Below the pieces are notes generated by a model that worked only from the letters and a program-made list of their open reading frames with translations, did no database searches and was not told the DNA's origin. A stretch of DNA of 64,000 nt from an uncultured bacterium. GTDB lineage: Bacteria; Patescibacteriota; Gracilibacteria; BD1-5; UBA2023. Position numbers and translations under genes: made by a program. The stretch lies in contig CAIVSN010000144.1 in the NCBI GenBank assembly GCA_903908595.1, positions 1,167 through 65,166 of the forward strand. The letters run 5' to 3'. Each line of letters opens with the position of its first letter. Position 1 is the first letter of the stretch. Shown here piece after piece: positions 80 to 59,474 of the stretch.

Positions 80-194
80 GCGGCATATCCAGCGGGGTTT
101 CAGAAAAATACCCCGGCAGACCACCAGGGAATTCAGAAAAACGATAAAGCTTTCCCTGGAAAAATACGACATCGTTTCTCCCGGCAGGCCACCA

Positions 195-316
195 GGGAAT
201 TCGGAAAAACGATGAAATCCGAAGCCGAATTCGAGTACCGTAGCGAGGCGTACCGATAGGTACGTTGAGCGAGGAACGCAGAATTCGGCAAGGAGTTCGC
301 GTTTTGCCGAATTCCC
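195..316 (-). repeat. Copy 1 of a ~120-nt structured post-CDS element: conserved core CGAACTCC..CCTCGCT..hairpin..CCTCGCT..TTCGGATTTCATC, with copy-specific inverted arms
   Basis: Arms GGGAATTCGGAAAAACG (195-211) / CGTTTTGCCGAATTCCC (300-316). Middle stem GCCGAATTC/GAATTCGGC. Apical hairpin CGTACC-GATA-GGTACG. Ends 1 nt from the pilB stop. Confidence 0.85.
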
Positions 317-3100: not shown

Positions 3101-3388
3101 AGAGACCCTGTCGAAATGCGAACTCCTTGTCAATTTTTCCGCTCCTCGCTCTACGTATACCCAAAAGGAATTGGTTTCCCGGTTTTTCCAGCCTCATCTT
3201 CGGACATCTTATATTTTTTTCTTCGGTCACTTATTCCCGATAAGCTCCCGGAAGAAGAAAAATAAAACCTGTTCCGAATCTGTGACCGTAAAACACCGAA
3301 AACCAATTCCTTTTGGGTATACTTGCCAGTACGTTTCGCTACGGTGCTCGAAATTGACTTCGGATTTCATCATTTTGCCAGGGTCTCT
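3101..3388 (+). repeat. Copy 2 of the structured post-CDS element, carrying a nested insertion in its apical hairpin
   Basis: Arms AGAGACCCTGTCGAAATG (3101-3118) / CATTTTGCCAGGGTCTCT (3371-3388). Middle stem AAATTGAC/GTCAATTT. Starts at the base after the tilS stop. Confidence 0.8.
3158..3319. repeat. ~162-nt palindrome-ended insertion nested inside element copy 2
   Basis: 20-bp terminal inverted repeats TACCCAAAAGGAATTGGTTT (3158-3177) / AAACCAATTCCTTTTGGGTA (3300-3319), plus inner CGGTCAC/GTGACCG. It interrupts the 3' arm of the apical hairpin present in the other copies. Confidence 0.7.
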
Positions 3389-10500: not shown

Positions 10501-11990
10501 TTTAGGGTGTAATCCGTCTTGTCGGCCGAAAGGGTTTCCGTACCGTCGGCAACGCCTATATATATGACGCTGTCATTTGCGACGTCTATGGCGTTCCCCG
10601 TACTTGGGGTAAGCGACGAGAAAGATTCGATAAGATTTACTCCGGTAGTATCCGCGATACCCACGGCATAATCCGTAGCGACGACCGTCGAATCCTCCAT
10701 CGCTTCGGAGTAGGTTATCTTTACGTAATCCACGACCCCGTCGTTATTGTTGTCGAGGGTCACGGAAGAGAGATACTGGGGAGCGGCTCCGTCGTTGTTT
10801 CCTGACCCAGCGTTATAAGCGATGGTTTGTGAAGCGGTAGTTGCCATTCCGTTCATGTCGGTAACGGATCCGGAGAGCTGGACCCCCTCCTTATCGGTAC
10901 CGACTAACTGGCCCGGTCCCATGAGCGTAACGTATTCGTCGTCTGCGGCATCGGTATAACCGTGCAATGGCGCCGCTTTCTTCATAAGGGAAACCGGGTA
11001 GGTTCCTCCTGCGTCATCATCAGCGGAGAAATCGTCGTATCCGGTTATGCTGGCGTCGCTGATCGGCTCAGAGAACATAACGTAAATTTCATCGTTGCGA
11101 CCGTCTTGTCCAGCCGTAGGGCCATTATCGGTAGTCGCGTCGTAGTTCGTTACGGAAACCATAACGGGCACGGCAGCGTCTATGGAAGCGTTGGTAGCAT
11201 CCGAAATGACGGCATTTCCCTGAGAATAATTATCCGTCAGGCTTCCGGCAGCATAGGCTACGTTTGGCGTAGCGTTCGTATCCGGTCCGATCTCGTCGAA
11301 ACCGATCACGATGATGTTGTCGTTCTCGTGATCGCCCGAAACGGTTTCCGCGGGAACGAACGTTGGATTCACGTATCCCGTCACGGTAAAATCGCTCGCC
11401 GTAACGCTGGTATCCTTGATATTGGCGCTGAACGCGTCGGCAAATGTGATCTTTACGGCATCGAGCTGGCCGTTGAGGTCCCGGTCGAGGGTATGGACGG
11501 CGGATATGGTCGGCGCGGTGTTGTCAATCCCAAAAGTAATGGCCGGTGTCAATGATCCGGCTCCGCCACCGGTAATTATTACCCGGCTCTTATAGCGGTT
11601 GGTAGCAGATTCGATCCTTGCAGTGGTATCCCAAGTAAGGGTATAGGAATTCGAATTTACACCAGGACTGACTTGGGCAAATTGCTGATACGCGCCATCA
11701 TCGGTGAAATCCGCGTTATTGTTCGCATCGTATAAGTAATACCCGGTAATAACTGCTCAAATATCGCTACACGTATCTCCGGGAGTGACGCTTACGTTGT
11801 AGCTATAGGCATTTCATCTTATCGAAGCGCCCGATGCCGGACCGACGTCAGTAAGGGTACATCCTCCGATAGCATTCGCCACCGGCACCAAATTCACAAT
11901 TCCAAAAAGCGATTGGGTCATAATCATCGTGACCAGCGATATGCCCGCAACGATTCTTTTTGAAGTTGTCTTTATTTTTAATAGAGCCAT
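4593..11990 (-). CDS. Giant (2,465-aa) secreted repeat-rich surface protein with Ig/FN3-like modules and Dx[DN]xDGxxD Ca-binding-like motifs
   Basis: ORFs 8757-11552, 6705-8501, 6501-6698 and 4593-6188 share one frame. They join through 10 TGAs (11814, 11757, 8757, 8541, 6705, 6501, 6318, 6300, 6258, 6204). N-terminal signal MALLKIKTTSKRIVAGISLVTMIMTQSLFGIVNLVPVANA from ATG 11988-11990. Stop TAG. Confidence 0.8.
5598..6152 (-). repeat. Tandem pair of ~273-bp (91-aa) near-identical coding repeats inside the giant gene
   Basis: VTPTVTLSGASIVSAYTATEAASRFS.GLQV...GHTASLTVAYQVNAD occurs twice. The DNA is nearly identical to the pair at ~6768-7325. Boundaries approximate. Confidence 0.8.
6768..7325 (-). 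repeat. Second tandem pair of the same ~273-bp coding repeat
   Basis: Same 91-aa unit twice. Long identical runs, e.g. GGTGACGGTTGAGCC.GTGGCGACGGAAGACCCGTTGACGGTCGCGGTAGCCGCGCCGG, are shared with 5598-6152. Boundaries approximate. Confidence 0.8.
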
Positions 11991-21000: not shown

Positions 21001-21717
21001 ATGTTCATATCTGTTTTCGCGGTCGCCCTCGCCGTCCTCGCTTCCCTCGCCGGTTGGCTGCTCTCCCGGTCTCCCCTCTCCAAAAGATCCATCCAGATCC
21101 TCATCGGGCTGGGGGCCGGGATGATGACCAGCATATCGCTTACCGACGTGCTTCCCGAAGCAATCGAAGCGGGGGAATCCGCCGGGATCGTCTTTTTCGT
21201 AGGATTTTGCGTGGTATTCCTGTTGGACTATTTCCAATGCACCCACCCGCACGAAGGGCACGACGACGCACACCGGCACGAGCACTCCAAAAAATCCGTC
21301 TGGAATTTCGGGGGGCTGTACATCCATACGTTTTTCGACGGGGTCGCCATCATAAGCGCCTTTTGAATCGCTCCGGCCCTGGGAATCATGGTGACCACCG
21401 GGGTCATCCTCCACCAGATTCCCGTTTCGCTCTCGCTCGCGGCCATCGCCCAGCATTCGCATTTCGACAAACGGCAAAAACTCTGACTGTTCGCCATGTT
21501 CGCGGGCTCGCTCGGATTGGGATCACTGGCGCTCAGTATCTTTTCCCTCGGAAACCTCGCGCCGTACGTCCTGGCGTTCGCGGGAGGCACGCTGCTGTAT
21601 ATCGGGGCTTCCGACCTCTTGCCGGAGCTGAAACACCATTCCAAGAACGCGTTGGGGGTCGTAGGGTTTTTCGTCGGGGGGTGCATTCCTATCGTCAGCC
21701 ACCTCATCGGGGGGTAG
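21001..21717 (+). CDS. ZIP-family divalent metal transporter (ZupT-like)
   Basis: ORFs 21001-21366 and 21496-21717 joined through TGAs 21364-21366 and 21484-21486. His-rich loop HPHEGHDDAHRHEH, ...GVILHQIP..., LLYIGASDLLPEL. Stop TAG. Confidence 0.85.
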
Positions 21718-21847
21718 GAACCTCATCAAAACGCGAACTCCTTGTCGAATTCTCCGTTCCTCGCTCTACGTACTTGCCAGTACGTTTCGCTACGGTACTC
21801 GAATTCAACTTCGGATTTCATCGTTTTGATGAGGTTCTTGAAGTTTT
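21718..21847 (+). repeat. Copy 3 of the structured post-CDS element
   Basis: Arms GAACCTCATCAAAACG (21718-21733) / CGTTTTGATGAGGTTC (21832-21847). Middle stem GTCGAATTC/GAATTCAAC with a G-U pair. Apical CGTACT-TGCC-AGTACG. Starts at the base after the ZIP stop. Confidence 0.85.
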
Positions 21848-23516: not shown

Positions 23517-25334
23517 TTATTTGTAGATGGTATAGCCGTAGCAGTAGCCGTCACTGACAGCGGAGGTAGAGTCTCAATATATGTTACTTTGAGTGGTACT
23601 ATTTAAATAACCGTATGTATCACCGCAATATCCATGAGAACAGAGGCTCTGATTTCCATTTGCCATAGTCGTGGTAACTCCGGAAAGCATCGACTGTACT
23701 CATTTACTATATACGTTCAAACCATTCACACGTAAGAATAATGAGCAAGCATAGCTATCCGAAGTTGTCGACCTGTAGATATTATAAATATACCCATTGG
23801 CCGTACCAGTAGACCAAGGGGAATTCTCAGTAATGGTCGTAGTGGGATGGGAAGACCCGTCGCTACTGTTCACATTTGGGCTTACTTGCTTTATCAAGCT
23901 GCAAGCGTACGTTGATTCAGAGGGGGTCTCATAGTGGATGGAATGATTCGGGCTGTATACTCAATATGTTGCGTGTATTCTCCATCTCCAAGAATTCGTG
24001 CCGTTTGCGGGATGTTGATACGAATCGGGATAAAACATCGTAGCGTGATTTTTCGCGGCTTCCACTTCGCACTGCGTTAACGTCATGACTCCAAGATTCT
24101 TGGTATAGGCATTGCGAATACACGACGGACAAGATCCGCCATTGGAAGACCACCCCGAAGTATCCGAAGCCAAGGAATTTCTCAAAGCACAGGCCGACCC
24201 ATCCCAAGCGTATCCCCAGCCAGTATTGCACTTGTACTGGCAGGTATTCGTCGCGGGACTCGCGAAATATCCCGCCGTCACCGCATTGAGCGAGGTTCCG
24301 CCGGACGCGCTCGACAGCGAGTAGCTCGACGTGGTATTGAAATATACTGAACCCGTTGGAAGTCCCGTACAGGCCCCGTCTACCAACGTGTTAGCCGTGC
24401 CGCCCCCTCCGCCCCCTCCCGCGCTTCCCCCCAATTGCGCGCTCACCAAACTCGTCCCGAACGACGCGAACGACCCGCTTGAGGTATTCATGAGCGTCGC
24501 GATGTTCTGGTTGCTTCTGATATCGGATCCGGAATACGCCGCCTGCAATGCCGCCACCATGGCGTTCAGGTCCGCCGCGCTCGCCGGCAATCCGCTCGGG
24601 TTCGAGGCCGTCTTCGCCCCGGAATGCACCACCGCCCCCGGAGGGAACGCGCTCGCCCCACGCAGGGCCTTCCCGTTGAACAGGAGCGAGCCCGAAAGCG
24701 AGCCTATGGGAGCGGAAGCCCCCGCAACGCTCCCGCTGTTCGTGAGGATGCCCGGGACGGCGAGGACGTACACCATGCCCCCCGTGCTCACCTTCGCGGT
24801 AAGCCCCCCGAAGTTCCCCCGGACGTAGGCCATGGAAGGGTTCCCGGCTTCGGCGTGGGCGGTGCCCGCGAGGAAGCCCGCGTCCGCGGCGTTCTGCGCC
24901 AGGTCGCCCTCGTACTCCGCCTTCAGCTGGTACGCTTTCCCTTCGGCGAGGGAAGAGTACCCGTACTCCGTGTTCTTCAGCGGGTCCAAGGGCTTCTCGT
25001 TGAGCCCCCCTCCGGCGATCGTCCCCTTGAAGTACTGCATGACGAGCGGTCAGACCGTCCCCTGGTTCCAGACGGTCCCACCCGAGTGCGTCACGGCGAA
25101 CGAGCCGTCCGGCAACGGATAGGAGCCCGATACGACCACGGAAAGGTCCAAAGACTTGGATGCCTGCGCGAGGTCGCCAATGCGGGCGGAGTCGCGGGCG
25201 CGCGACGAATAGCCCCCTATCGAGAGGAAGCCGATGGTGCCGAGGATGGCGAGGATAGTTATGACGACTATAAGCTCGACGAGGGTGAACCCTTTGAGTT
25301 TCCGGGATGCGGAAGGTGGTTTGGTGAAGAACAT
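23517..25334 (-). CDS. Type IV pilin-like protein with a large Cys-rich C-terminal domain (605 aa)
   Basis: MFFTKPPSASRKLKGFTLVELIVVITILAILGTIGFL. ORFs 25050-25505, 23961-25040 and 23700-23897 are in one frame, joined through TGAs 25050, 23961, 23700 and 23574. Stop TAA 23517-23519. The tail contains >15 Cys (CQYKCNTGWGYAWDGSAC...). Confidence 0.85.
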
Positions 25335-25567
25335 ACCGAATATGGTAAAAAAGTATCGTATCGACCAAAGTTTACTACATGTTATATGGAAAACAAAAGA
25401 AAATCGACAGTTTGACATTTCTACTTTGGATTGACAAGAAAATCGACAGTTTATTTTTGGGAAAATAGTGTCTGATGGAAAAGCGGTTCGGAAAACGTCG
25501 TTCAATTATCTGCTTCAAACTTATCCGAAGCATTTGCCGAACCACGAAGTTGTAACGGAACCCGATA

Positions 25568-25602
25568 TATGCCCAACGGGAATTGGTTTCCCGTTGGGCA
25601 TA
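25568..25602 (-). terminator. Perfect 14-bp hairpin after tail-collar-like gene A
   Basis: TATGCCCAACGGGA-(7 nt)-TCCCGTTGGGCATA, 25 nt after the TAG. No clear T-run. Confidence 0.45.
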
Positions 25603-25626
25603 TAAACCGTCTTCAATGTTCGCAAC

Positions 25627-26262
25627 CTAATTCTTCTGACAGTACAACAGCGCGATATACGGCTGCATGTTGTCCGGGGCGGTTCCAGCTCATACTATAG
25701 TGGCTATAGCAGCACCTGCCAATGATGTATCAATGGTACCTCAGATAGATCAGGATTTCATCGGGATCGATGGAGTGGCATCTGAATAAACCCTTACGGC
25801 ACCAGCATATGTCCCAAGAGAGGTACCCGTGGGATTAGTTCAAAAATTACCTCAACTTGACCCATTGAGGCTTAAATTGTTTACAGTAGTTATGCTGACT
25901 CAACCAAGCGATACCGTGACGTTCGCATCACTCAGGGATGGTTTGCTTTTGTCTCAACCCATATCCCCCACGCTCGCATTGCTGCCAGCACCATTCCCCC
26001 GTCCGATAACCGTCCTTCCGGCAGCGGCCGAATATTCGGTCCAGCCGCTTGGGCAGCTCGCGAGATTGAAGCTCATGACCGCACCGGTCGGAATTCCGCT
26101 CTGAACGGTGTTCACGAGCTGGTTCCATTTCTGATAGTCGAGCTTGTCGCCGCTCGATGCCGTGAGCCCGGCCCAGGCGTAGACTCCGGTAGCGGTGAGC
26201 GCGATGGTGGCGGCAAGGCTCAGCGCGTATTTGCCGGCCGTCTTCATGGTTTGGTTTTTCAT
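25627..26262 (-). CDS. Secreted phage-tail-collar-like (MdpB-like) protein, paralog A
   Basis: MKNQTMKTAGKYALSLAATIALTATGVYA signal. PTGAVMSFNLASCPSGWTEYSAAAGRTVIGRGNG. Seven TGAs (25954, 25900, 25852, 25840, 25750, 25741, 25690). Ends ...APDNMQPYIALLYCQKN*. Alternative start 26283. Confidence 0.65.
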
Positions 26263-26387
26263 ATGGGTAAATTGGTTTTTCATATGGGTAAAAGTGAAAA
26301 GATAAGTTGAGTCTTTGCGTCCGTACTTATACCAAATTCATTTGATTCACCTGGCCTGCGAGCAAGTGGAGTTAGATTAATATGGTA

Positions 26388-26578
26388 TTAGAGCGAACAA
26401 TCGTCCACCGAGCTTCCATCGGTCGTCCCGTTTCAAAGGACGCAAGCTTCGGAAGCTCCCGGAGACTGCGACCCGCCTCACGTCGTGATTTTCCCGCTGA
26501 GCTGGTTGGAAACGATGGCGGTGCCGAGACTTTGAATGGCTCGGGCTCCGGTCGCGGAAAGGAGGTCAGCAAGGCTAG
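26388..26578 (-). pseudogene. Relic 3' fragment of a pilin gene, duplicated together with the collar gene
   Basis: Reads ...SLADLLSATGARAIQSLGTAIVSNQLSGKITT[G]GSQSPGASEACVL[G]NGTTDGSSVDDCSL*. About 140 nt are near-identical to the 3' end of pilin 27214-28248. It has no N-terminal half and abuts the stop of collar gene B. Confidence 0.75.
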
Positions 26579-26582
26579 AAAA

Positions 26583-27167
26583 CTAATTCTTCTGACAGTA
26601 CAGCAGCGCGATATACGGCTGCATGTTGTCCGGGGCGGTTCCTCAGCCTGCAATGGACGTCGTCACTCAGCCAAGATTCACGGGAGCTACTGGTGGCGTT
26701 CCTGTTGGCAGATAAATTGCGGCTGACGTTGGACCCGCAACTGTGCTCGTAAGTCATAAGTTTCAAGATTGTACCATAATCGCTCCTCCTGTTGAAGACG
26801 TACCCACCGAAATATTCGTAGTTACCGTTGCGCTCGAGAGACTCGGAGCGCTCTTCTCCCCTCCGACGTCTCAAACACTTGCATTACTCCCCGCGCCGTT
26901 CCCCCGTCCGATAACCGTCCTTCCGGCAGCGGCCGTATATTCGGTCCATCCCGTCGGACAGCTCGCGAGATTGAATGCCGCGACTTCGCCCGGAATTCGA
27001 CCGCTCTGAACGGTATTCACGAGCTGGTTCCATTTCTGATAGTCGAGCTTGTCGCCGCTCGATGCGGTAAGCCCCGCCCAGGCGTATACTCCGGTAGCGG
27101 TGAGCGCAATAGTGGCGGCAAGGCTCAGCACGTATTTGCTGGCCGTATTCATGGTTTGGTTTTTCAT
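26583..27167 (-). CDS. Secreted phage-tail-collar-like protein, paralog B
   Basis: MKNQTMNTASKYVLSLAATIALTATGVYA... N-terminal ~95 aa and C-terminal ~20 aa nearly identical to paralog A, with a divergent middle. Five in-frame TGAs. Stop TAG 26583-26585. Confidence 0.65.
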
Positions 27168-27213
27168 ATGGGTAAAAGTGAAAAGATAGAAAAATGAATT
27201 TTAGCGTCCGTAC

Positions 27214-28248
27214 TTAGAGCGAACAATCGTCCACCGAGCTTCCATCGGTCGTCCCGTTTCAAAGGACGCAAGCTTCGGAAGCTCCCGGAGACTGCGACCC
27301 GCCTCACGTCGTGACTTTCCCGCTGAGCTGGTTGGAAACGATGGCGGTGCCGAGATTCTGTACCGCGGTCGTTCCGGTCGCGGAGAGGAGGCTTGCCACA
27401 TTGGAATTGGACGCGACGTCGGATCCGGCATAGGCGGACTTGAGCGCGGTTACCATGGCAGTGATCTGTCCGCTGGCGTCGCTTCCGGGAAGACCCGCGG
27501 TACTGGTGAAGACGACCCCGCTATTGGTTCGGGCGTTGGGATTGTAGGTACTGGCGTTCAGAAGGGGCTTACCGTTGAAGAGGAGGGTGCCGGAGAGGGC
27601 GTTGCTTTCGATCTTGAGGGCGTTGCCCGCCCCGGTCCCGCTGTTGGTAACGATGCTCGGGACGGCGAGGACGTAGGTGACGGATCCTGTGACGGTCCTG
27701 GCGGTGAGCCCTCCGTAGTTCCCACGGACATACGCGATCGTGGGGTTGCCGGCGTCGGCGGAGGCGGTCTGGACGAGTGGGTTTCCGGTTTGGTAGTAGG
27801 CGGTCGGATTCGGGAGGTCGTTCTCATATTCGGACTTGATCTGGTAGGCGTTGCCGAAGGCGAGAGTGGAATAGGTATATTCGGTATTCTTGAGCGGATC
27901 GAGGGGCTTTTCGTTGAGCCCACCCCCCGCTATCGTCCCCTTGAAGTATTGCATGACGTTCGTTCATACCGTTCATTGGTTCCAAACCGTTCCGCCGGAA
28001 TAGGTGACGGCGAAAGCGTTGTCCGGGATAGGATAGGCTCCGGCGGTGACGACGGAAAGGTCGAGAGATTTGGCCACTTGGGCGACGTCTCCTACCCTGG
28101 CGGAATCCCGGGCTTTGGAGGAATATCCGCCGATGGCGAGGAAGCCAATGGTTCCGAGGATCGCGAGAATGGTTATGACTACGACAAGCTCCACGAGGGT
28201 GAAGCCTTTGAACTTCCGAGAAACGGAAGATTTTTTGGAGTAGAACAT
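27214..28248 (-). CDS. Type IV pilin-like protein (344 aa, short C-terminus)
   Basis: MFYSKKSSVSRKFKGFTLVELVVVITILAILGTIGFL. WNQ[TGA]TV[TGA]TNVMQYFKG matches WNQGTVGSLVMQYFKG of the paralog near 59 kb. TGAs at 27973, 27964, 27304 and 27259. Stop TAA 27214-27216. Confidence 0.85.
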
Positions 28249-28282
28249 ACCGGATGTGGTAAAAGAATATCGTATCGCCCAA

Positions 28283-45822: not shown

Positions 45823-45949
45823 CCGGAAACCCCGAGAAAATGATGAAATCCGAAGTCGGTTTCGAGCACCGGAGCGAGGCGTGCTGGCAAGCACGTTGAG
45901 CGAGGAGCGGAAAAACCGACGAGGGGTTCGCATTTTCTCGGGGTTTCCG
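45823..45949 (-). repeat. Copy 4 of the structured post-CDS element (between sufS and sufU)
   Basis: Arms CCGGAAACCCCGAGAAAATG (45823-45842) / CATTTTCTCGGGGTTTCCG (45931-45949), 19 bp perfect. Middle stem GTCGGTTT/AAACCGAC. Apical CGTGCT-GGCA-AGCACG. Confidence 0.9.
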
Positions 45950-45953
45950 CATT

Positions 45954-47204
45954 TTATCGGGGTTTCCGGACGATATCGTCCAGTACCTCGAAAAACTTCT
46001 CCAGATCGTCCTGGGTCGTGTACATCGAAATGCTCATTCGCACCGTTCCGGAAATCTCCTGCCGGATATGGAACGGCTCGGCGCAGTGGTGCCCGGCCCG
46101 GACGCAGACGTCCTCGGCCGCGAAGGCGTCGGCCACGTCGGTAACGTGTTTCCCTTCGACCGTGAACGAGAATACCCCGGCCCGGATGGCACCGGATGGC
46201 AAAACGGCGACCGTGGGGCCGACGAGCGTTACCGTTTCGGACCGCTCCGCGAATTCTTCGAGCGCGTATTCGACGAGTTCCCGCTCGGTCTCGGCGACTT
46301 CCGGGTATCCGCCGACCGATTCGAAGTATTCGACGGCCGTGAGCAGGGAAACGGCTCCCGTGAGGTTCGGGGTTCCCGGCTCGAATCGGTACGGGAGGCC
46401 GGAAACCTCGTATCCGTCCGTATGGACAAAATTGATCGCTCCGCCGCCGCCGATGCAGGGTTCCATGGATTTGAGAAGCTCTTTCTTCCCCCACAGGATG
46501 CCGATGCCCGGATCCGCCCACATCTTATGGCCGGTAAATACCGCGAAATCAAGCCCGTTCGCGACTACGTCGACCGGGCCGTGCGGCACGAGCTGGCTCG
46601 CGTCCATGATGCGGTAGGGCGGCTTTCCCCATTCGGCTTGCCAATATTTCCCGATAGCGTCGTTGACCTCCGGAAAATTCACCCCTACGCCCGTCACGTT
46701 GGAGCATCACGTGAACGATACCACCTTGGTGTTCGGGGTGAGTTTCGCGACGAAGTCCGCCATATCGAGCTCGTAATCCGCATTCAGCCCGACGAATTCC
46801 ACCTCGATGCCGAGGGATTCCCGGAGCATCATCCAGGGGACGACGTTCGCGTGGTGCTCGACGATCGAGAGCAGCACCCGGTCGCCGGTTTTGAGCCAGC
46901 CGCTCCGCGCCATGGAACCCGCGAGCAGATTGAACGCGCCGGTAGCGTTGTTGGAATACGCGATTTCGTAGTGGCTTTCCGCGCCGATCAGGCGGGCGAC
47001 CGCGATTTTGGACTCCTTGTAGAGGGATTCCGAGAGCTCCGAGAGCTCGTACGAACCCCGATGGATATTGGCATACCCCCGTTCGAGGTATTCCGCGACC
47101 GCGTCGATGACGGCGGCGGGCTTCTGCGCGGTACTCGCGCTATCGAGATACACGAGGTCCGGATGGGATTCGAAAATCGGGAAGTCGGAGCGGATATCGG
47201 TCAT
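45954..47204 (-). CDS. sufS: Cysteine desulfurase SufS (class V aminotransferase)
   Basis: ORFs 46707-47204 and 45954-46697 joined through TGA 46707-46709 (VVSFT[G]CSNVTGV). YLDSASTAQKP; C-terminal active-site RAGHHCAEP. Confidence 0.9.
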
Positions 47205-47216
47205 TTTTGATAAAAA

Positions 47217-48176
47217 TTAAAATCCTAAATTTTTGAAAATTTGTTTCTGGAGATATTCGAGCGCCGGTTCCGCCAGTCCGGCATACGTCTGGGAAATCCG
47301 GGCGGAAAGATACGTTTTCTGCGCCAGTGTACGGGAGATTCCGCGGGATGCAAGGTAAGAAAGCATTTCCCCGGAAACCCGTTCCACCGTGGCCGAATGG
47401 CTCGCGAGCCCGTCTTCCGAAGCGACCCGGAGTTCGGGAATTCCCCGGACTCCTCCGGTTTCCCCGAGCAGGAGCGCGGATTCGTGGATTTTGACGTCGT
47501 AATCGGCGGTACCGGATCGGACGTCGGCGGAAATTTTCGCGTTCGCCCGGGCCCCGTCAGGCACGAGGACCAGGGCTTCGTGGACATATCAGTTCGATAC
47601 GCCGGAAACCGTCCCGAGGCTCGTGAAACGGCGCTCCGCCGAAACGTCCCCGACGATGACCGACCGGAGTTCGGCCTGGGCCTTCGCGGTTGCAAGGATT
47701 ATCTGGATTTCGCTCGCATCCGAGAGCTCGAGGGAAAATATTTTCGCGTCGCCCGTCACGGAGATTTCCGTGATTCCTTCGCCGTAAACGAAATAATTGC
47801 CAGAGCCGAGCACGTGCGAAGTTCCCGCCTCCAAAATCGAAATGCCCGCGAATTCCTTCGGCGCCTTCGCCGGGTCCCCGGCAAACCGGAAACTCGAACC
47901 GCACCCGCACCGCCCGGTGACTTTTTCCGAAGTGAAAATCCATTTTTCTCCGGATCGGGTGATTCGGGAACCGTCGAGTTTTTCGGATTCGGAAGCGGGG
48001 CAGGACACCGTGAACCCGTCGTCCATCGTGAATGTTTCGAGGATTTCCCCGGTCGGGATTTCCGTCAGGACTTCTACTTTGGTGCCTTCGCATCCTTTTT
48101 TGATGAGATGCACGAACACCTCGCGAACGCCCTGTTCACGGAATTTCTGAAGCGATATTTTGTCGAGAGTAATCAT
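47217..48176 (-). CDS. sufD: Fusion of a HesB/IscA (SufA-like) domain with a short SufD-like C-terminal domain
   Basis: N-terminus KKGCEGTKVEV...GRCGCGSSFRF (IscA CGCGxSF motif). ORFs 47589-48176 and 47217-47564 joined through TGA 47589-47591. C-terminus LLLGETGGVRGIPELRVASEDGLASHSATVERVSGEMLSYLASRGI is SufBD-fold-like. Confidence 0.75.
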
Positions 48177-48242
48177 AAAGTTACGGTAATATATAGACTC
48201 TTGCGGAATTCCCGAAAGTATCCGCAGTACCCATGTCCCTCA

Positions 48243-48369
48243 CTTGGAATCGCGAGAAAATGATGAAATCCGAAGTCGGTTTTGAACACTGCAGCGAGGC
48301 GTGCTGGCAAGCACGTTGAGCGAAGAGCGGAAAAATCGACAAGGAGTTCGCATTTTATCGCGATTCCAA
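48243..48369 (-). repeat. Copy 5 of the structured post-CDS element (between sufB and the sufA/D fusion)
   Basis: Arms CTTGGAATCGCGAGAAAATG (48243-48262) / CATTTTATCGCGATTCCAA (48351-48369). Middle stem GTCGGTTTT/AAAATCGAC. Apical CGTGCT-GGCA-AGCACG. Confidence 0.9.
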
Positions 48370-48371
48370 TT

Positions 48372-49787
48372 TTATCGCGATTCCAATTCCATGCCAATGA
48401 GAATGTTCATCTCCACCGCATATTCGAGCGGGAGTTCGCTGACGATCGGTGCGAGGAACCCATTGACGATCATCTGCTTGGCGGAGGTTTCGTCCATACC
48501 CCGGCTTTCGAGATAGGCGAGCGTTTCCTCGGAAATTTTCCCAACGCTGGCTTCCTGTGCGACGAGCGCGTCCGGGGTGCCGACCCGGATGTCGGGGGTC
48601 GTGTCCGACCGGGACCGTCCGTCGAGCAACAATCCGTCGCACGTCACCTGGGAGACCGCCCCTTTCGCGCACGGCTTGATATCCACGAGCCCCCGGTAAT
48701 TCGAAACCCCGCCCGCTTTCGAGAGCGACTTAGAAATGACTTCCGAGGTCGTCCGCTCTCCGATGTGGATAACCTTGGCGCCCGTGTCCGCCACCTGCCC
48801 GGCATTCGCGAACGCGACCCCGATATGGCGGGCTTTGGAATCGTCGCCCACGAGCACGGAACACGGATAGAGCATCGTTACCCCGGAGCCGAGATTTCCC
48901 CCGATCCATTCGACGAATCCGCCTTCTTGGACGATGGCCCGTTTGGTATTGAGGTTGTACGTGTCGATCGACCAATTCTCCACGGAACTGTACCGCATCT
49001 TGGCGGACGACCCGACATATATTTCGACACAGCCAGCGTGCAGGCTCGACGTCCCGTATTTTGGCGCGGAACACCCCTCGATGTAGTGGGCCTCGGACTC
49101 GTCTTCGAGCACGATGATCGTGTGCTCGAACTGCCCGCCGGACTTCGCGTTCATCCGGAAATACGCTTGGAGCGGTTCCGCGATCTTGACGCCCTTCGGG
49201 ACGTAGAGGAAGGTTCCCCCACTCCAAACCGCCCCGTGCAATGCCGCAAATTTGTGATCCGAAGCCGGCACGGCCTTCATGAAATGCTTCCGAAGGAGCT
49301 CCTCGTGACGGTGGATCGCTACCGACATGTCCTCAAAAATCACGCCCTGTTCGACCAATTCTTCTTTGAGCTTGTGGTAAACGACCTCACTGTCGTACTG
49401 GGCCCCGACCCCCGCGAGCATCTGGCGTTCCGCTTCAGGAATCCCGAGCTTTTCGAAGGTGTTCTTGATGGTTTCCGGCACGTCGTCCCACGATTTGGCA
49501 TCGGTCGCCCCGGCGGGTTTGGCAAAATAAAAGATGCCCCGTAAATCGAGCCCGCTCAAGTCCGGCCCCCATTCGGGCATGGGCTTCGACTCGAAGATTT
49601 TCAATGACCTGAGGCGCAGTTCCAGCATCCATTTCGGTTCGTTCCCGTTTTTGGAAATCTGTCGGACCACGGCTTCGTCGATGCCCGCCGCGGAAACCGC
49701 CGCATAGGCGATATCGTCCCGCCCGTCGAAAATCTCGCGGGAAAGCCCCTCGAATATATGCGCGTTCGTCGTTTGATTGGAAGGCAT
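48372..49787 (-). CDS. sufB: Fe-S cluster assembly protein SufB
   Basis: 471 aa; the SufB family is recognisable throughout (..SGGQFEHTIIVLEDESEAHYIEGCSAP..). Confidence 0.9.
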   Translation of the reverse strand: MPSNQTTNAHIFEGLSREIFDGRDDIAYAAVSAAGIDEAVVRQISKNGNEPKWMLELRLRSLKIFESKPMPEWGPDLSGLDLRGIFYFAKPAGATDAKSWDDVPETIKNTFEKLGIPEAERQMLAGVGAQYDSEVVYHKLKEELVEQGVIFEDMSVAIHRHEELLRKHFMKAVPASDHKFAALHGAVWSGGTFLYVPKGVKIAEPLQAYFRMNAKSGGQFEHTIIVLEDESEAHYIEGCSAPKYGTSSLHAGCVEIYVGSSAKMRYSSVENWSIDTYNLNTKRAIVQEGGFVEWIGGNLGSGVTMLYPCSVLVGDDSKARHIGVAFANAGQVADTGAKVIHIGERTTSEVISKSLSKAGGVSNYRGLVDIKPCAKGAVSQVTCDGLLLDGRSRSDTTPDIRVGTPDALVAQEASVGKISEETLAYLESRGMDETSAKQMIVNGFLAPIVSELPLEYAVEMNILIGMELESR

Positions 49788-50646: not shown

Positions 50647-52260
50647 TTATTTTATCCAAATGATACCGGATTGATTATCATATGATCAAGCGCCCGAAAT
50701 ATCAAATCGCATTCAATTCTCAGTACTGTAGGTACTATACCCAAAACGTTGTCAAAAATTACTATAGGCGGTCGGCAAATATTGAGTACCGTCGAAGTAT
50801 CACGATACATCGGTTCCCGCGGCATTCGTTTCCGCATTGTTCAGTGTCGAATACACTGTACATAGGAACGATCCCGCACAACTTCATCCGGAATTCATTC
50901 GGAGATCCGTAGGCCATGTTTTGCCGCTCGTCCTGTGATACCAATCGGAAGCGGATTGGTCGGATCGGACCAATTTCAAGACGGAATTCGTTCTGGAACT
51001 TATGGCATTCAAATCCGCAGTACTCATCCTTCCGCTCGTTCCGAACGTTTTGTTCACTATACTGCTCAAATTGCAACCATTTGAATTGTTGTAACACGCA
51101 GCCCCCATATTCCCGTTCGTGATTTTGAAGGCAAGCGACCACCCTCCGCCATCCGAAGTCATATCGCAGTAAGCCTTGAAACTGCTGGTACCAGTAGGAT
51201 TTATCCAATATACGCCATCGCCGGTATCTCCGGTATACAGTTTCGGGGCGGACGGATTCTTGTATGAGAAGCAACTCGTAGCATACGTCCCGTCCGCCCA
51301 ATTCCTTCATGTAGTGTCGTTTCCGGAAATATATCCGCTTGCCACGGGGACGATCAATGGGGAAACCGTGCTTGTTCCTCCGAGATGCCCGACCAACATG
51401 CTGGTGCCATAGGTCGCGAGGGAACCGCTTGACAGGGAAACGAGCGTCGCGATGTTCCGGTCGGACCTGAGGTCGCTTCAGGAATACGCGTTCTGAAGCA
51501 TCGTCATCATCGAGGAAATCTCCGAGTCCGTACTCGGAAGCTTGGCTCAAGAGAACACCACTTGGGCAGGGTTGAACCCACTCGCGTTTCGAAGCGCCTT
51601 CCCATTGAAAAGGAGGGTACCGGAAAGCGAAGCCACGGGCACGGGAGCCCCATTGGTGGTCCCGCTGTTCGTAACGATGCTCGGGATCGCGAGAACATAG
51701 ACGCTGCTCCCCGTGGTCGTTTTCGCGGTAAGTCCCCCGAAATTCCCACGGATGTAGGCCGTCGCCGGATCTCCCTCTGCGGCGAATGCGGATTCAACGA
51801 GCAAGTTTCCATTCATAGCCGCTTGGTTCATATCCCCTTCACATTCCGCCTTGATCTGGTAGGCCTTCCCTTCCGCGAGAGTGGAATACGTATATTCGGA
51901 ATGCTTCAATGGATCGACGGGTTTTGTTCCCAATCCCCCTCCCGGAATGGTAGCTTTGAAATACTGCATGACGAGCGGTCCGATAGTTCCCTGATTCCAG
52001 ACGGTTCCCCCGGAATATGTCACGGCAAACGAATTATCGGGAAGCGGGTATGATCCGGAAGTGACGATGGCAAGATCCAAAGATTTGGATACCTGTGCAA
52101 TGTCCCCGATCCTCGCCGAATCCCGGGCTTTGGACGAATACCCGCCGATAGCGAGAAACCCGATGGATCCAAGTATCGCAAGAATAGTGATTACTACGAT
52201 AAGTTCTACGAGAGTGAATCATTTGATTTTCCTCCGGAAGGGATATTGCCTTGTACACAT
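50647..52260 (-). CDS. Type IV pilin-like protein fused to a C-terminal fibrinogen-related (FReD-like) domain (537 aa)
   Basis: MCTRQYPFRRKIK[TGA]FTLVELIVVITILAILGSIGFL, with TGA 52219-52221 as the Gly(-1) of the prepilin site. Nine TGAs in total. Tail: ATSCFSYKNPSAPKLYTGDTGDGVYWINPTGTSSFKAYCDMTSDGGGWSLAFKITNG. Stop TAA 50647-50649. Confidence 0.8.
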
Positions 52261-57230: not shown

Positions 57231-57394
57231 GGCTCGATGATACCATTCATGAGATGGGGTGTCAAAAAATGGGTGGTTTGGGAGACGGATGCGAGAATGG
57301 AAGCCCGTCGATCAAAACGCGTGTCAAAAAATGGGGGCAGTTTCGGAGGAAAATGCGCCGGCCGGCTCCCCCTCTCGCCGGCCGTCTCTTGGTA

Positions 57395-57511
57395 AACCCT
57401 CTCGAAACGATGAAATCCGAAGTCGATTTTGAGCACCGTAGCGAGGCGTTCATTGGTACGGAGAGCGAGGAGCGCAAAAATTGATGAGGAGTTCGCGTTT
57501 TGGTGAGGTTC
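57395..57511 (-). repeat. Copy 6 of the structured post-CDS element (most degenerate arms)
   Basis: Core conserved (GATGAAATCCGAAGTCGATTTTGAGCACCGTAGCGAGGCG...GAGCGAGGAGCGCAAAAATTGATGAGGAGTTCGC). Right arm CGTTTTGGTGAGGTTC is almost identical to the copy 3 arm. Lies 40 nt after the pilin stop. Confidence 0.75.
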
Positions 57512-57551
57512 TTACGATGAAGAGACAGAAGTGACGAAAGCGTCGAATACC

Positions 57552-59474
57552 CTAATTCTTGAGGCAACGGAGCGAGAACCCGTTCCCACGAGTATTTGAA
57601 TACGCGATATTGCCGCCGCCGGAGGAGAAGTCTGCGATGTAGGAGTTCGGGGAATACGGAGACGACGACCAGTAGTAGCCGCCCGACCCCTGATTGTAGT
57701 AGTACCCATTAATCCAATGCCGGTACCCGGCAAGGGGGAGCTTGAGCGCGCACCGGGTCCGGTCGTACGCGTTCGCCTGGTTGCAGGAGCCGAAAGCGGC
57801 GTTCGAATTGACGATGGCGTAGAGCGTTCCCCATTGGGTGGAGGTATCCGACGTTCCGCCGGTCGGGATATGGTATCCGGACGGGCAAGGTCACTGGGCG
57901 TCGCCGCCGTTGCCGGCGTTCCATCCGCCGGACGGGTTTGTGGCCCCGGCCCATTTCCAGTCGCCATAAAAGGCTTCCCCCTGGTAGAAGTTCGGGGTTC
58001 ACGTGGTATTCGCGGGCGACGTGAGCGTCCCGCCGTACTGGCTGGCCGTCCAAGTCCCGGAAGTGACGATGTCGTTGCGCCCCCACTGGTAGTAGTTGCC
58101 CTGGACGGCCGCAACCCGGTTGATCGGCAGGGCTGACGCGGTCGCGGTCGGGTTCGGCGACTGCGCGGGAACGGCATCGTACCCGGCCGAGGTCGTGGCG
58201 CCCACGTTGCAGGCGGCCCAGATCTGGACGTTGTCGGTGCCCTGTTGCCATACGGCGATATCGTTGGTATCGCAGGACGGATCGGACTTCGTGCCGCTCG
58301 TGCCGATGCCGGCGGCGGTTACCGTGACGTTGGTTCCGCCGTAGGAGAACTGCTGGGATGGCGCGTAGGTAGTGGCGGAAGCGTATGCTGGAGCCATCGG
58401 GGTCGGGGTTCCGCTTCCCCCGCTCGTCGTCGCTTTCCCGCCGAGCTGATTGGACACGATGGCGGTGCCGAAGCTTTGGACGGCGCCGGTGCCGGTGGCG
58501 GAGAGGAGGGACGCTACGTTCGTATTGGAGATTACGTCAGAGCCGGAGTAGGCGGACTTGAGGGCCGTCACCATGGCGGTGATCCGGCCGTCCGCGTCGC
58601 TTGCCGGAAGCCCGCCGGTGCCGGAGAAGACGACTCCGCTGTTCGCGCGGGCGTTGGGATTGTAGGAAGAAGCGTTCTGGAGCGGCTTGCCGTTGAAGAG
58701 GAGGGTGCCGGAGAGGGCGTTCTGCTCGATCCGGAGGAGGTTTCACGCCCCGGTCCCGCTGTTGGTGATAATGCTGGGTATCGCGAGGACGTAGGTGAAG
58801 GAACCGGTGACGGTCTTGGCGGTGAGTCAGCCGTAGTTGCCACGGACATAGGCGATAGTGGGGTTGCCGGCTTCGGCGGAGGCGGTCGGAAGCAAGGGAT
58901 TGCCGGCTTGGTCGGAAGCGGTCGGGACGAGCGGGTTGCCGGCTTGCCCGCCGTCCCGGTACGCCGTGGGATTGGGGACGTCGTTCTCGTAGTCGGCCTT
59001 GATCTGGTAGGCGGTGCCGAAAGCGAGGGAGGAGTAGGCGTATTCGGAGTTTTTGAGGGGGTCGGTGGGCTTGTCGTTGATACCGCCGCCGTTCACGGTA
59101 CCCTTGAAGTACTGCATGACGAGGGATCCGACGGTTCCTTGGTTCCAGACGGTCCCGCCGGAATAGGTGACGGCGAAGGAATTGTCCGGTACCGGGTAGG
59201 TACCGGCGGTGACGACCGAGAGGTCGAGGGACTTGGAGATCTGGGCGACGTCGCCGACGCGGGCGGAATCGCGGGCTTTGGAGGAGTATCCGCCGATGGA
59301 GAGGAAGCCGATGGTGCCGAGGATGGCAAGTATGGTGATGACTACGACGAGCTCAACGAGGGTGAAGCCATGGAAGGATTTTTTCTCGGGTTTCGAACCG
59401 TGGGCAATCCCAGTGGCATGGGAAGCGCGAACGGTTGCGGGGACGGATGCGTTGGCATTCTTTGTGGGTTTCAT
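57552..59474 (-). CDS. Type IV pilin-like protein fused to a C-terminal FISUMP-like (Fibrobacter succinogenes major paralogous) domain (640 aa)
   Basis: ...KKSFHGFTLVELVVVITILAILGTIGFL. ORFs 58827-59681 and 57999-58574 joined with the tail through TGAs 58827, 58743, 57999 and 57891. Tail: NYYQWGRND...[G]PCPSGYHIPT...LKLPLAGYRHWINGYYYNQGSGGYYWSSSP...GFSLRCLKN*. Confidence 0.8.

What the first reader, a model, noticed from the sequence alone, without database searches (positions are those of the whole stretch)
48243..48369. Unrecognised ~120-nt structured element: six copies, always just 3' of a CDS and always in the same relative orientation
Copies lie at 195-316, 3101-3388, 21718-21847, 45823-45949, 48243-48369 and 57395-57511. 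They share an ~88-nt core.

Three nested helices are maintained by compensatory changes:
- Outer arms differ completely between copies yet stay complementary. Examples: CCGGAAACCCCGAGAAAATG/CATTTTCTCGGGGTTTCCG versus GAACCTCATCAAAACG/CGTTTTGATGAGGTTC.
- Middle stem: GTCGGTTT/AAACCGAC, GCCGAATTC/GAATTCGGC, GTCAATTT/AAATTGAC, GTCGATTT/AAATCGAC.
- Apical hairpin: CGTGCT-GGCA-AGCACG, CGTACC-GATA-GGTACG, CGTACT-GGCA-AGTACG.

The internal-loop sequences are invariant: GATGAAATCCGAA, two AGCGAGG boxes, and AAGGAGTTCGC.

Each copy begins 0-40 nt after a stop codon (pilB, tilS, ZIP, sufS, sufB, pilin 57552). Each has the same orientation relative to that gene, on both DNA strands. This argues for function in the mRNA 3' end (stability, processing or termination) or for an orientation-specific insertion mechanism. 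Most copies have no T-run after the stem. I cannot match it to any named RNA family, REP/BIME or MITE.
Basis: seen in the sequence. Interest (0 to 1): 0.85.

Follow-up and report, generated by a model that had tools for sequence, protein, structure and literature searches.

The report
Structured hairpin repeat abutting stop codons
A ~125-nt hairpin-forming repeat with a conserved structured core sits right against the stop codons of six housekeeping genes in this Gracilibacteria genome; it behaves like an undescribed mobile element shared by several lineages of ultra-small (Patescibacteria/CPR) bacteria.

Summary
The window has exactly six copies, five intact and one interrupted by a second, nested hairpin element. 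No Rfam family matches.

The same core occurs in another Patescibacteria genome (JAVHRB01, 9 copies in 42 kb), in a Parcubacteria genome, and in an Uhrbacteria-like contig among other metagenome contigs. Each lineage has its own outer arms. On 26 sequences, 94% of cells pair and 28 of 38 pairs show compensatory changes (0 of 500 shuffles reach this).

The element is mobile. The sites after sufB, sufS, pilB and tilS are empty in relatives with 77-92% identical proteins. A close relative carries a copy after sufU, where this window has none. An Uhrbacteria-type copy has perfect 26-bp terminal inverted repeats flanked by TA.

In 20 of 32 copies a long ORF on the opposite strand ends within -12 to +8 nt of one particular end of the hairpin. 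G·U pairs and an invariant U·G wobble favour folding of the strand antisense to that gene.

Best reading: a new family of non-autonomous palindromic mobile elements (MITE/ERIC/REP-like) with an unusually conserved structured core. The mobilising enzyme, the cause of the polarity and any RNA function remain unknown.

The parts
48245..48368 (+). Focal copy (elem+ strand), lying between sufB and sufD, both of which are on the - strand. Sub-features: 5' arm 48245-48262; box 1 GATGAAATCCGAAG 48262-48275; middle helix 48275-48283 pairing with 48332-48340; apical hairpin 48298-48317; box 3 CAAGGAGTTCGC 48340-48351; 3' arm 48352-48368.
   Evidence: Sequence; fold at -60.5 kcal/mol, z = -7.5; covariance model score 125 bits.
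48369..48385 (+). T1, a 17-nt tandem copy of the 3' arm. On the - strand it encodes the last codons and the TAA stop (48372-48374) of sufB.
   Evidence: Tandem repeat. Relatives end SufB as IGMELE(S/N/G)GH*, whereas the window ends it as IGMELESR*. Similarity of the arm to its own flank scores 16, against at most 10.5 for other copies' arms.
45826..45947 (+). Copy between sufS and sufU (genes on the - strand); 89% identical to the focal copy.
45950..45969 (+). T1 of the sufS copy: a tandem copy of the 3' arm carrying the sufS stop codon TAA (45954-45956).
195..316 (+). Copy directly after pilB (on the - strand; stop TAG at 318-320).
   Evidence: The PilB C-terminus is identical in relative L061, which has TAA and no element.
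81..148 (+). Two truncated copies (81-108 and 112-148) of the leader, the 5' arm and the start of box 1, lying on the gene-distal side of the 195 copy.
   Evidence: Direct repeats, 92% identity over 37 nt.
3101..3388 (-). Copy directly after tilS (on the + strand; stop TAG at 3098-3100), split in its apical loop by a nested element.
   Evidence: The site is empty in L063.
3158..3319 (.). Nested, unrelated 162-nt hairpin element with 20-nt perfect terminal inverted repeats (TACCCAAAAGGAATTGGTTT) and TA on both sides.
   Evidence: (I14).
21718..21837 (-). Copy directly after the ZIP transporter gene (on the + strand; stop TAG at 21715-21717). It lies downstream of the terminator of the convergent RNase III gene.
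57393..57512 (+). The most degraded copy, 39 nt from the TAG stop (57552-57554) of a pilin-like gene on the - strand.
   Evidence: (101 bits).

Best explanation
This is a family of non-autonomous, hairpin-forming mobile DNA elements, of the same kind as MITEs, ERIC/Correia elements and REPs, that is spreading within Patescibacteria (CPR) genomes.

**Anatomy.** Each copy is a ~125-nt imperfect palindrome:
- lineage-specific outer arms (terminal inverted repeats);
- a nearly invariant basal module (bulged A, UGAA/UUCG helix with a U·G wobble, A/G mismatch, UCC/GGA helix, GAA/AA loop);
- a variable middle helix;
- tandem G·A mismatches;
- a short apical hairpin.

**Shown.**
- Copies come and go between close relatives.
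- They land at, or a few nucleotides from, TA-containing stop codons (TAG/TAA).
- Some copies replace the last codons of the gene and supply the new stop.
- One particular end faces the gene.
- The helices are kept by compensatory change.

**Inferred.**
- Insertion is made by a trans-acting enzyme not seen here. It would be a TA-duplicating IS630/Tc1-like transposase for the symmetric Uhrbacteria- and Parcubacteria-type copies. For the Gracilibacteria-type copies, whose ends are asymmetric, it may be a strand-specific enzyme.
- The conserved core is kept because the element must fold as a single strand, either as DNA during transposition or as RNA once transcribed.
- Selection in very compact genomes leaves only insertions that keep a stop codon and do not disturb the next gene.
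For: **Real, structured family.**
- 94% of cells pair; 28 of 38 pairs have double changes, in 237 cells; 0 of 500 shuffles reach this; slid controls give 33-49% pairing.
- The covariance model scores copies at 90-125 bits, against about 20 bits on the reverse strand.

**Distribution.** Gracilibacteria (the window and GCA_028687815.1), JAVHRB01, Parcubacteria GW2011_GWA2_40_14, and Uhrbacteria-like contigs. Several copies occur per 8-14 kb locus.

**Mobility.**
- sufB|sufD and sufS|sufU are empty in L056, L057, L058 and L060.
- The sufU site is filled only in L057.
- The pilB and tilS sites are empty in L061, L063 and L065.
- The argS site is empty in L067 and L068.
- Truncated copies lie next to full ones.

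**MITE-like ends.**
- L037 has perfect 26-bp inverted repeats with TA on both sides. Removing the insert leaves a 41-nt spacer, against 42 nt in the empty relative.
- Parcubacteria-type termini are AACTTTCATAATTTG/CAAATTTGGAAGTT, mostly TA-flanked.
- An unrelated TA-flanked hairpin element has inserted into copy 3101.

**Stop codon.**
- In 20 of 32 copies a convergent ORF of at least 90 codons ends within -12 to +8 nt of the hairpin.
- PilB ends at the same residue in the window and in L061, with TAG plus the element here and TAA there.

**Precedent.** GTAG REPs often provide TAG stop codons to flanking ORFs (PMC3733652).
Against: - No transposase or autonomous parent element was found in about 400 kb of loci.
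- The element is absent from the phage, plasmid and viral collections.
- Gracilibacteria-type copies have no TA and no target duplication on the gene-distal side. There the flank is CCCAG or CAAG, against CTA on the proximal side.
- TA targeting by a symmetric transposase does not explain the strict polarity.
- The most conserved parts are internal loops, not the termini, and the termini differ between lineages. That is unusual for recognition by a transposase.
- A subfamily has the same arms but a strand-swapped basal module, so the core behaves like a separable module.
- The invariance of the boxes outside the window is partly built in, because the collection scans required exact matches.
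Confidence: 0.55

Rival explanations
1. The element is a single-stranded-DNA recombination substrate. It would be handled by a strand-specific enzyme, either an HUH/Y1 transposase as for REP-RAYT and IS200/IS605, or a tyrosine recombinase as for integron attC sites. The hairpin folds from the bottom strand (antisense to the gene). It is inserted next to (G/C/T)TAG, which would fix its polarity relative to the stop codon.
For: - Gracilibacteria-type copies have asymmetric ends and no target duplication.
- The gene-sense junction reads GTAG, CTAG or TTAG followed by the hairpin in 8 of 16 copies, like the GTAG head of REPs (PMC2817692; PMC3733652).
- The better-folding strand is the bottom strand, as for attC sites (own knowledge).
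- Conserved loops with variable stems fit recognition of a folded strand.
- Orientation follows the gene, not the replication direction. Copies 195 and 3101 are 3 kb apart and in opposite orientations.
Against: - At 120-180 nt it is far longer than REPs (20-40 nt).
- The G before TAG is not conserved.
- The attC R-box consensus (RYYYAAC/GTTRRRY) is not met.
- The neighbouring genes are housekeeping genes, not cassettes.
- No Y1 transposase or integrase gene was seen near any copy.
- The L037 copy looks like a classical inverted-repeat/TA element.
Confidence: 0.15
2. The element is a host-serving cis element of the mRNA: a 3'-UTR or intercistronic hairpin. It would stabilise the upstream cistron, act as an RNase III processing site, or modulate termination and re-initiation at the stop codon. 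In this reading its mobility is only the means by which it spread.
For: - It is always placed after a CDS, often inside operons: sufB-sufD, sufS-sufU, pilB-pilC, secY-adk, rpsG-fusA.
- The hairpin starts 0-8 nt after the stop codon.
- The gene-sense strand also folds strongly, at -26 to -66 kcal/mol.
- RNase III is encoded in the window.
- REP and ERIC elements have such roles (own knowledge; PMC3733652).
Against: - Orthologous genes in close relatives do without it.
- G·U pairs favour the antisense strand, 76 against 19 (50 against 19 without the invariant pair), and the invariant U·G would be an A·C mismatch in the mRNA.
- Gracilibacteria-type copies have no T-run.
- Four copies sit in the opposite orientation, just upstream of start codons.
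Confidence: 0.15
3. The elem+ strand is itself expressed as a small structured RNA. It would be an antisense RNA or a protein-binding RNA, or it would act as a terminator or insulator for transcription running antisense into the 3' end of the gene.
For: - The strand asymmetry of G·U pairs, the invariant U·G wobble and the purine-rich loops with tandem G·A are all typical of functional RNAs.
- Parcubacteria-type 5' arms contain a CATAAT motif, and the 3' arm is followed by a T-run.
- The core is conserved across lineages that have different arms.
Against: - No conserved promoter lies upstream.
- Many copies lie inside operons, where an antisense promoter would be needed.
- Copies are dispensable in relatives.
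- Copy number is high and truncated copies exist.
Confidence: 0.1

Closest known systems
ERIC/IRU, Correia (CREE) and RUP-type bacterial MITEs (TA-targeting, hairpin-forming, about 100-160 nt)
   Same: - Non-autonomous, multi-copy and intergenic.
- The whole element is an imperfect palindrome that folds as an RNA hairpin.
- TA flanks in the Uhrbacteria- and Parcubacteria-type copies.
- Sites are polymorphic between relatives.
- Co-located with gene ends.
   Different: - The conserved part is an internal structured core shared by lineages whose termini differ.
- Polarity relative to the adjacent stop codon is strict.
- Gracilibacteria-type ends are asymmetric and lack a TA duplication.
- The hosts are Patescibacteria, for which three full-text searches found no such element described.
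REP/BIME elements with a GTAG head, mobilised by RAYT (TnpA_REP) (PMC2817692, PMC3733652)
   Same: - Extragenic palindromes placed after genes.
- G·T pairs in the stems.
- The terminal TAG often serves as the stop codon of the flanking ORF.
- Clusters and partial copies occur.
   Different: - 120-180 nt, against 20-40 nt for REPs.
- Several helices with conserved internal loops.
- The GTAG head is present in only some copies.
- No RAYT gene was seen.
Integron attC sites
   Same: - A structured imperfect palindrome of similar length directly 3' of an ORF, sometimes overlapping its stop codon.
- Fixed orientation relative to the gene.
- The functional fold is on the bottom strand.
- Sequence is variable but pairing is kept (own knowledge).
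   Different: - No R''/R' core sites.
- The neighbours are scattered housekeeping genes, not a cassette array.
- No integrase.
- The conserved sequence is internal rather than at the base.
Repetitive hairpin-forming elements of organelle genomes (for example sponge mitochondria, PMC2800124)
   Same: Small mobile hairpins that invade the intergenic regions of compact genomes, with no known mobilisation mechanism.
   Different: Unrelated in sequence, and they lack a conserved core with covarying helices.

Membership tests
Any Rfam 15 family | A match at or above the family's gathering score. | tested here: not met
   No hit on the window or on 12 related loci. E-value scans return only microRNA and snoRNA noise far below threshold.
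MITE of the IS630/Tc1-mariner type | Terminal inverted repeats. | tested here: met
   Outer arms are complementary in every copy. They are 26-bp and perfect in L037. Parcubacteria-type copies share a conserved 15-nt terminus.
MITE of the IS630/Tc1-mariner type | TA target-site duplication on both sides. | tested here: inconclusive
   Present in L037, where spacer arithmetic gives 41 against 42 nt, and in about 8 of 12 Parcubacteria-type copies, although those flanks are AT-rich. Absent on the distal side of Gracilibacteria-type copies, which read CCCAG or CAAG there.
MITE (any type) | Presence/absence polymorphism at orthologous sites. | tested here: met
   Six sites compared: sufB, sufS, sufU, pilB, tilS and argS.
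MITE (any type) | A cognate autonomous element or transposase with the same ends. | not testable with these tools
   None was found in the loci held.
REP/RAYT | A 20-40 nt palindrome with a conserved GTAG or CGTC head. | tested here: not met
   Length is 120-180 nt. The junction reads GTAG in 5 of 16, CTAG in 2 of 16 and TTAG in 1 of 16 Gracilibacteria-type copies, and in no Parcubacteria-type copy.
REP/RAYT | [quoted passage not shown] | not tested
   Inverted pairs in L033 and L051 flank ordinary genes. The genomes were not searched for Y1 transposases.
Integron attC | R'' (RYYYAAC) and R' (GTTRRRY) core sites, in a cassette array with an integrase. | tested here: not met
   The arms read ...CAAAACG/CGTTTTG... 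or CAAATTTGG, which do not fit the consensus. The neighbours are sufB, pilB, tilS, secY and similar genes.
Intrinsic (Rho-independent) terminator | A G+C-rich hairpin followed by a T-run. | tested here: not met
   The terminator scan places no site at the element in the window copies scanned. Parcubacteria-type copies do end in TTTT on both strands.
Known small self-cleaving ribozymes (hammerhead, twister, pistol, hatchet, hairpin, HDV) | A match to the family's covariance model. | tested here: not met
   No Rfam hit. Cleavage itself cannot be tested here.

The most novel reading that the evidence does not exclude
The conserved core would be a new class of functional structured nucleic-acid module that rides on different MITE-like arms in different Patescibacteria lineages. 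It consists of the basal module with the U·G wobble and A/G mismatch, plus the apical tandem G·A motif.

It could be a protein-binding or catalytic RNA or single-stranded-DNA motif. Its activity, positioned against stop codons, would explain the strict polarity. Candidate activities are strand-specific self-insertion, mRNA processing, or an interaction with the terminating ribosome.
Probability: 0.2. Interest if true: 0.85.

Novelty: new variant of a known kind. Interest (0 to 1): 0.62.

Why it matters
Patescibacteria have tiny, streamlined genomes and few described mobile elements. Here a repeat occurs roughly every 10 kb, wedged between essential genes and even rewriting their last codons and stop codons. 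That makes it a significant and so far unreported force in the evolution of these genomes.

Three features together give a testable case of site- and strand-specific insertion at the ends of genes:
- a core conserved across lineages while the termini differ;
- helices maintained by compensatory change;
- a strict polarity towards stop codons.

The element is also a possible new structured RNA or single-stranded-DNA motif. Practically, a covariance model of it would improve annotation of CPR metagenome-assembled genomes, for example spurious ORFs across the element and mis-called gene ends in code-25 genomes. It would also provide a marker for strain-level variation.

Tried and rejected
- **Rfam membership.** Gathering and E-value scans on the window and related loci gave nothing meaningful.
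- **Phage or plasmid origin.** No match in IMG/VR, INPHARED or PLSDB.
- **Arms copied from the target at each insertion.** Only the sufB, sufS and (weakly) ZIP copies show similarity between the arm and its own flank. Rejected as a general rule.
- **A conserved box-1-like motif in the upstream leader, as an alternative pairing partner.** Not enriched over shuffles, 7.97 against 7.5. The cases seen are sporadic truncated copies.
- **A conserved leader or promoter upstream of elem+.** None in alignments or scans.
- **Replication-coupled orientation, as for IS608.** Rejected, because neighbouring copies 1-3 kb apart have opposite orientations that follow their genes.
- **A small ORF within the element.** Reading frames and lengths are not conserved between copies (inspection).
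- **K-turn, C/D-box, hammerhead and attC readings of the boxes.** These were checked by eye and by Rfam and did not fit.
- **An autonomous parent flanked by half elements.** Not found.
- **Literature.** Searches for a description in CPR found nothing.

Full report

Yes. I call elem+ the strand that reads GATGAAATCCGAAG...AAGGAGTTCGC. Repeat finding, alignment and motif searches recover six copies:
- On the + strand: 195-316, 45826-45947, 48245-48368 and 57393-57512.
- On the - strand: 3101-3388 and 21718-21837.

A covariance model run over the whole window with filters off finds no others. It scores the five intact copies at 101-125 bits, against about 20 bits for their reverse strands.

The focal copy folds into a single long hairpin at -60.5 kcal/mol as RNA (z = -7.5) and -34.2 kcal/mol as DNA (z = -5.5). 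The copy at 3101-3388 is split in its apical loop by an unrelated 162-nt hairpin element (3158-3319). That element has 20-nt perfect inverted termini and TA on each side.

**2. Host and genetic code**

TGA is a sense codon here. sufS has an in-frame TGA at 46707-46709, and a 2465-codon ORF (4593-11990) contains ten. SufB homologues place the window in Gracilibacteria.

All six are on the strand opposite to elem+. The gene-sense strand therefore reads GCGAACTCC...CTTCGGATTTCATC.

Measured from the outermost model pair, the hairpin base lies -1 to +6 nt from the stop codon in five copies and 39 nt in the sixth.

**3. The family outside the window**

*Reference genomes.* An exact-pattern scan of one genome per GTDB species found one other genome with many copies: the Patescibacteria MAG JAVHRB01 (GC 43%, against 54% here). 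It has 9 copies in six 8-kb loci. The scan also hit Parcubacteria GW2011_GWA2_40_14.

*Metagenomes.* A metagenome scan found a dozen distinct loci with the same two boxes but different stems. Three further hits were chance matches, about the number expected. One of these types (L037/L040) is Uhrbacteria-like by its ArgS.

*Elsewhere.* Nothing was found in viral, phage or plasmid collections. No Rfam family matches any member.

*Caveat.* Because the scans demanded exact boxes, the invariance of the boxes outside the window is partly by construction. Copies found only by the covariance model (L033:5150, L057, L046:14199, L051:11093) carry one to several substitutions in the boxes. In L051:11093 the change UCC/GGA to UUC/GAA keeps that helix paired.

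**4. Structure**

*Covariation.* I aligned 26 sequences: 6 from the window, 8 from JAVHRB01 and 12 others.
- RNAalifold predicts 38 pairs in one extended hairpin, and 28 of them show compensatory double changes.
- 94% of cells form standard pairs, against 72% after shuffling.
- 237 cells have changes on both sides, against 78 after shuffling. No shuffle in 500 reaches this.
- Sliding the partners by one to three columns drops pairing to 33-49%.

*Anatomy from the base upward.*
- Lineage-specific outer arms.
- An invariant basal module: G-C, a bulged A, UGAA/UUCG with a U·G wobble, an A/G mismatch, UCC/GGA, and a GAA/AA internal loop closed by G-C.
- A variable middle helix.
- Purine-rich internal loops with tandem G·A.
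- A 6-8 bp apical hairpin.

*Strand-swapped subfamily.* A Parcubacteria subfamily has the same arms and the same apical part, but its basal module is strand-swapped. The core therefore behaves as a separable two-stranded module.

**5. Which strand folds?**
- In the modelled pairs, G·U occurs 76 times on elem+ (50 without the invariant pair), against 19 on the other strand.
- elem+ has the lower free energy in 27 of 31 copies, by 9.5 kcal/mol on average.
- The bias is strong in the Parcubacteria-type copies and weak or reversed in several JAVHRB01 copies, and the copies are not independent. I treat it as good but not conclusive evidence.
- It runs against the direction expected from transcription- or replication-associated C-to-T bias (inference from established mutational asymmetries).

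**6. Mobility**

Orthologous loci from close relatives were fetched and scanned with the model.
- sufB-sufD: relatives with 79-92% identical SufB have a 3-25 nt junction and no element.
- sufS-sufU: empty in L057 and L060. L056 carries an unrelated hairpin there.
- sufU: L057 (91% SufB identity, GCA_028687815.1) has a copy directly after sufU. The window, L056 and L058 have none there, and the TAG stop is at the same codon in all four.
- pilB and tilS: empty in L061, L063 and L065. PilB ends ...SLEEVFSVID in both the window and L061, followed by TAG plus the element here and by TAA there.
- argS: the Uhrbacteria-type copy after argS is absent from a relative with 84% identical ArgS. The copy has perfect 26-bp inverted termini (TAGACCTC...) with TA on both sides. 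Removing it together with one TA leaves a 41-nt spacer, against 42 nt in the empty relative.
- Truncated copies lie beside full ones: 81-108 and 112-148 next to copy 195, and box-1 fragments upstream of the suf copies and of L044.

These are the marks of a non-autonomous mobile element.

**7. Relation to the stop codon**

*Counts.* Across 32 copies, 20 have an ORF of at least 90 codons on the opposite strand whose stop codon lies -12 to +8 nt from the box-3 end of the hairpin. On the mirrored side there are only two such cases, both probably spurious ORFs.

*Type of stop.* The adjacent stop is TAG or TAA in 19 of these 20 cases. The exception is one TGA stop, in a code-11 genome, which lies 8 nt away.

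*Termini that read as stops.* In the Uhrbacteria-type copies the terminal TAG of the repeat reads as a stop from either side. In L040 it terminates the upstream gene.

*Overlap with coding sequence.* In L053 the last four codons and the stop of nusG lie inside the outer stem. In the two suf copies of the window the last codons and the TAA stop belong to T1, a tandem duplicate of the gene-proximal arm. SufB ends IGMELESR* here, against IGMELE(S/N/G)GH* in relatives.

*Exceptions.* Four copies are in the sense orientation and lie 3-14 nt upstream of a start codon: rplJ, rpmB, nusA and pilM. So it is always the same end of the element that touches a CDS boundary.

**8. How it most likely works**

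*Shown.* It is a structured palindromic repeat that inserts at gene ends, is lost or absent in relatives, and sometimes supplies the stop codon.

*Inferred.*
- A trans-acting enzyme inserts it at TA-containing stop codons.
- The first base of the element (G or A) regenerates TAG or TAA, so the gene stays intact.
- In genomes with very short spacers, purifying selection removes other insertions.
- The core is maintained because the element must fold as a single strand.

*Unexplained.*
- Polarity. Near-symmetric termini and a palindromic TA target cannot give it.
- Asymmetric ends. Gracilibacteria-type copies read CTA on the proximal side and CCCAG or CAAG on the distal side, with no duplication.

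Two explanations for these remain open.
- Strand-specific insertion of a folded single strand, in the manner of REP-RAYT, IS200/IS605 or attC.
- Orientation-dependent selection at the RNA level. elem+ carries AAGGAG and an AUG and forms the stronger hairpin. This could be tolerated only upstream of start codons, while the weaker reverse hairpin is tolerated against stop codons.

I could not distinguish the two here.

**9. Comparison with what is known**

It works most like ERIC, Correia and RUP-type MITEs and like REPs. GTAG REPs are documented to provide TAG stop codons to flanking ORFs and to show G·T pairs suggestive of RNA function (PMC3733652; PMC2817692).

It fails the defining features of REPs (length and head), of attC sites (core sites and cassette context), of intrinsic terminators, and of every Rfam family. 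The membership table gives the details.

It differs from typical MITEs in three respects:
- the conserved part is an internal structured core shared by lineages with different termini;
- its polarity towards stop codons is strict;
- its hosts are Patescibacteria.

Full-text searches found no description of such an element in Patescibacteria.

**10. Verdict**

The feature is real. It is a new family, and in several respects a new variant, of hairpin-forming mobile repeats. The mobilising enzyme and any RNA-level function are unknown. Interest is moderate to high, because of the conserved core and the unexplained stop-codon polarity.

Noticed in passing
window 46707-46709; 4593-11990; whole window: TGA is read as a sense codon (code 25-like). 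sufS has an in-frame TGA where relatives would place Gly, and a 2465-codon ORF carries 10 in-frame TGA. Table-11 ORF calls fragment many genes.
   Followed up: partly
window 3158-3319: A second, unrelated 162-nt hairpin element with 20-nt perfect inverted termini (TACCCAAAAGGAATTGGTTT) and TA on both sides. It is nested in the apical loop of the copy after tilS. Single terminus-like matches occur at 25570 and 34412.
   Followed up: partly
window 81-148: Two truncated copies (leader, 5' arm and start of box 1) lie on the gene-distal side of the copy after pilB. The second forms a small hairpin followed by a T-run on the - strand (111-129).
   Followed up: partly
window 48369-48397 (- strand): A promoter-like TTGGCA-17-TAAAAT (10 of 12 matches) is created by the end of sufB together with the duplicated arm T1. 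It points through the element towards sufD.
   Followed up: no
L055:9763-9898, L036:1278-1411, L046:13071-13208, L051:9917-10053: A Parcubacteria 'B' subfamily. It has the same outer arms and apical part, but the basal module is strand-swapped (5' CAAGRTCGC ... 3' GATGAGATTGG). One copy sits just upstream of rpsL.
   Followed up: partly
L051:11093-11215 (- strand): A diverged copy directly after rpsG. In it the otherwise invariant UCC/GGA helix has become UUC/GAA, a compensatory change, and the A/G mismatch has become a U-A pair.
   Followed up: no
L056:13652-13808: A relative with 92% identical SufB carries a different hairpin of about 110 nt, with a GGAGCGAAGCGGAG loop, at the sufS-sufU junction. 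This window has the element at that same junction.
   Followed up: no
window 24400-25400, 27300-28250, 51400-52150, 58400-59320; 25600-27200: Several paralogous pilin-like genes share 70-79% identical 300-nt segments. A segment of about 900 nt is tandemly duplicated (93-94% identity) around 25.6-27.2 kb.
   Followed up: no
window 4593-11990: A giant 2465-codon ORF contains internal repeats with 285-nt spacing (5572-6156 and 6745-7329, 84-86% identity).
   Followed up: no
window 48176-48245 (- strand): Between the focal copy and the sufD start there is a 17-codon ORF (ATGGGTACT...CCGTAA) preceded by GAGGGA. It ends 4 nt before the sufD ATG. It might restore translational coupling across the insertion.
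   Followed up: no
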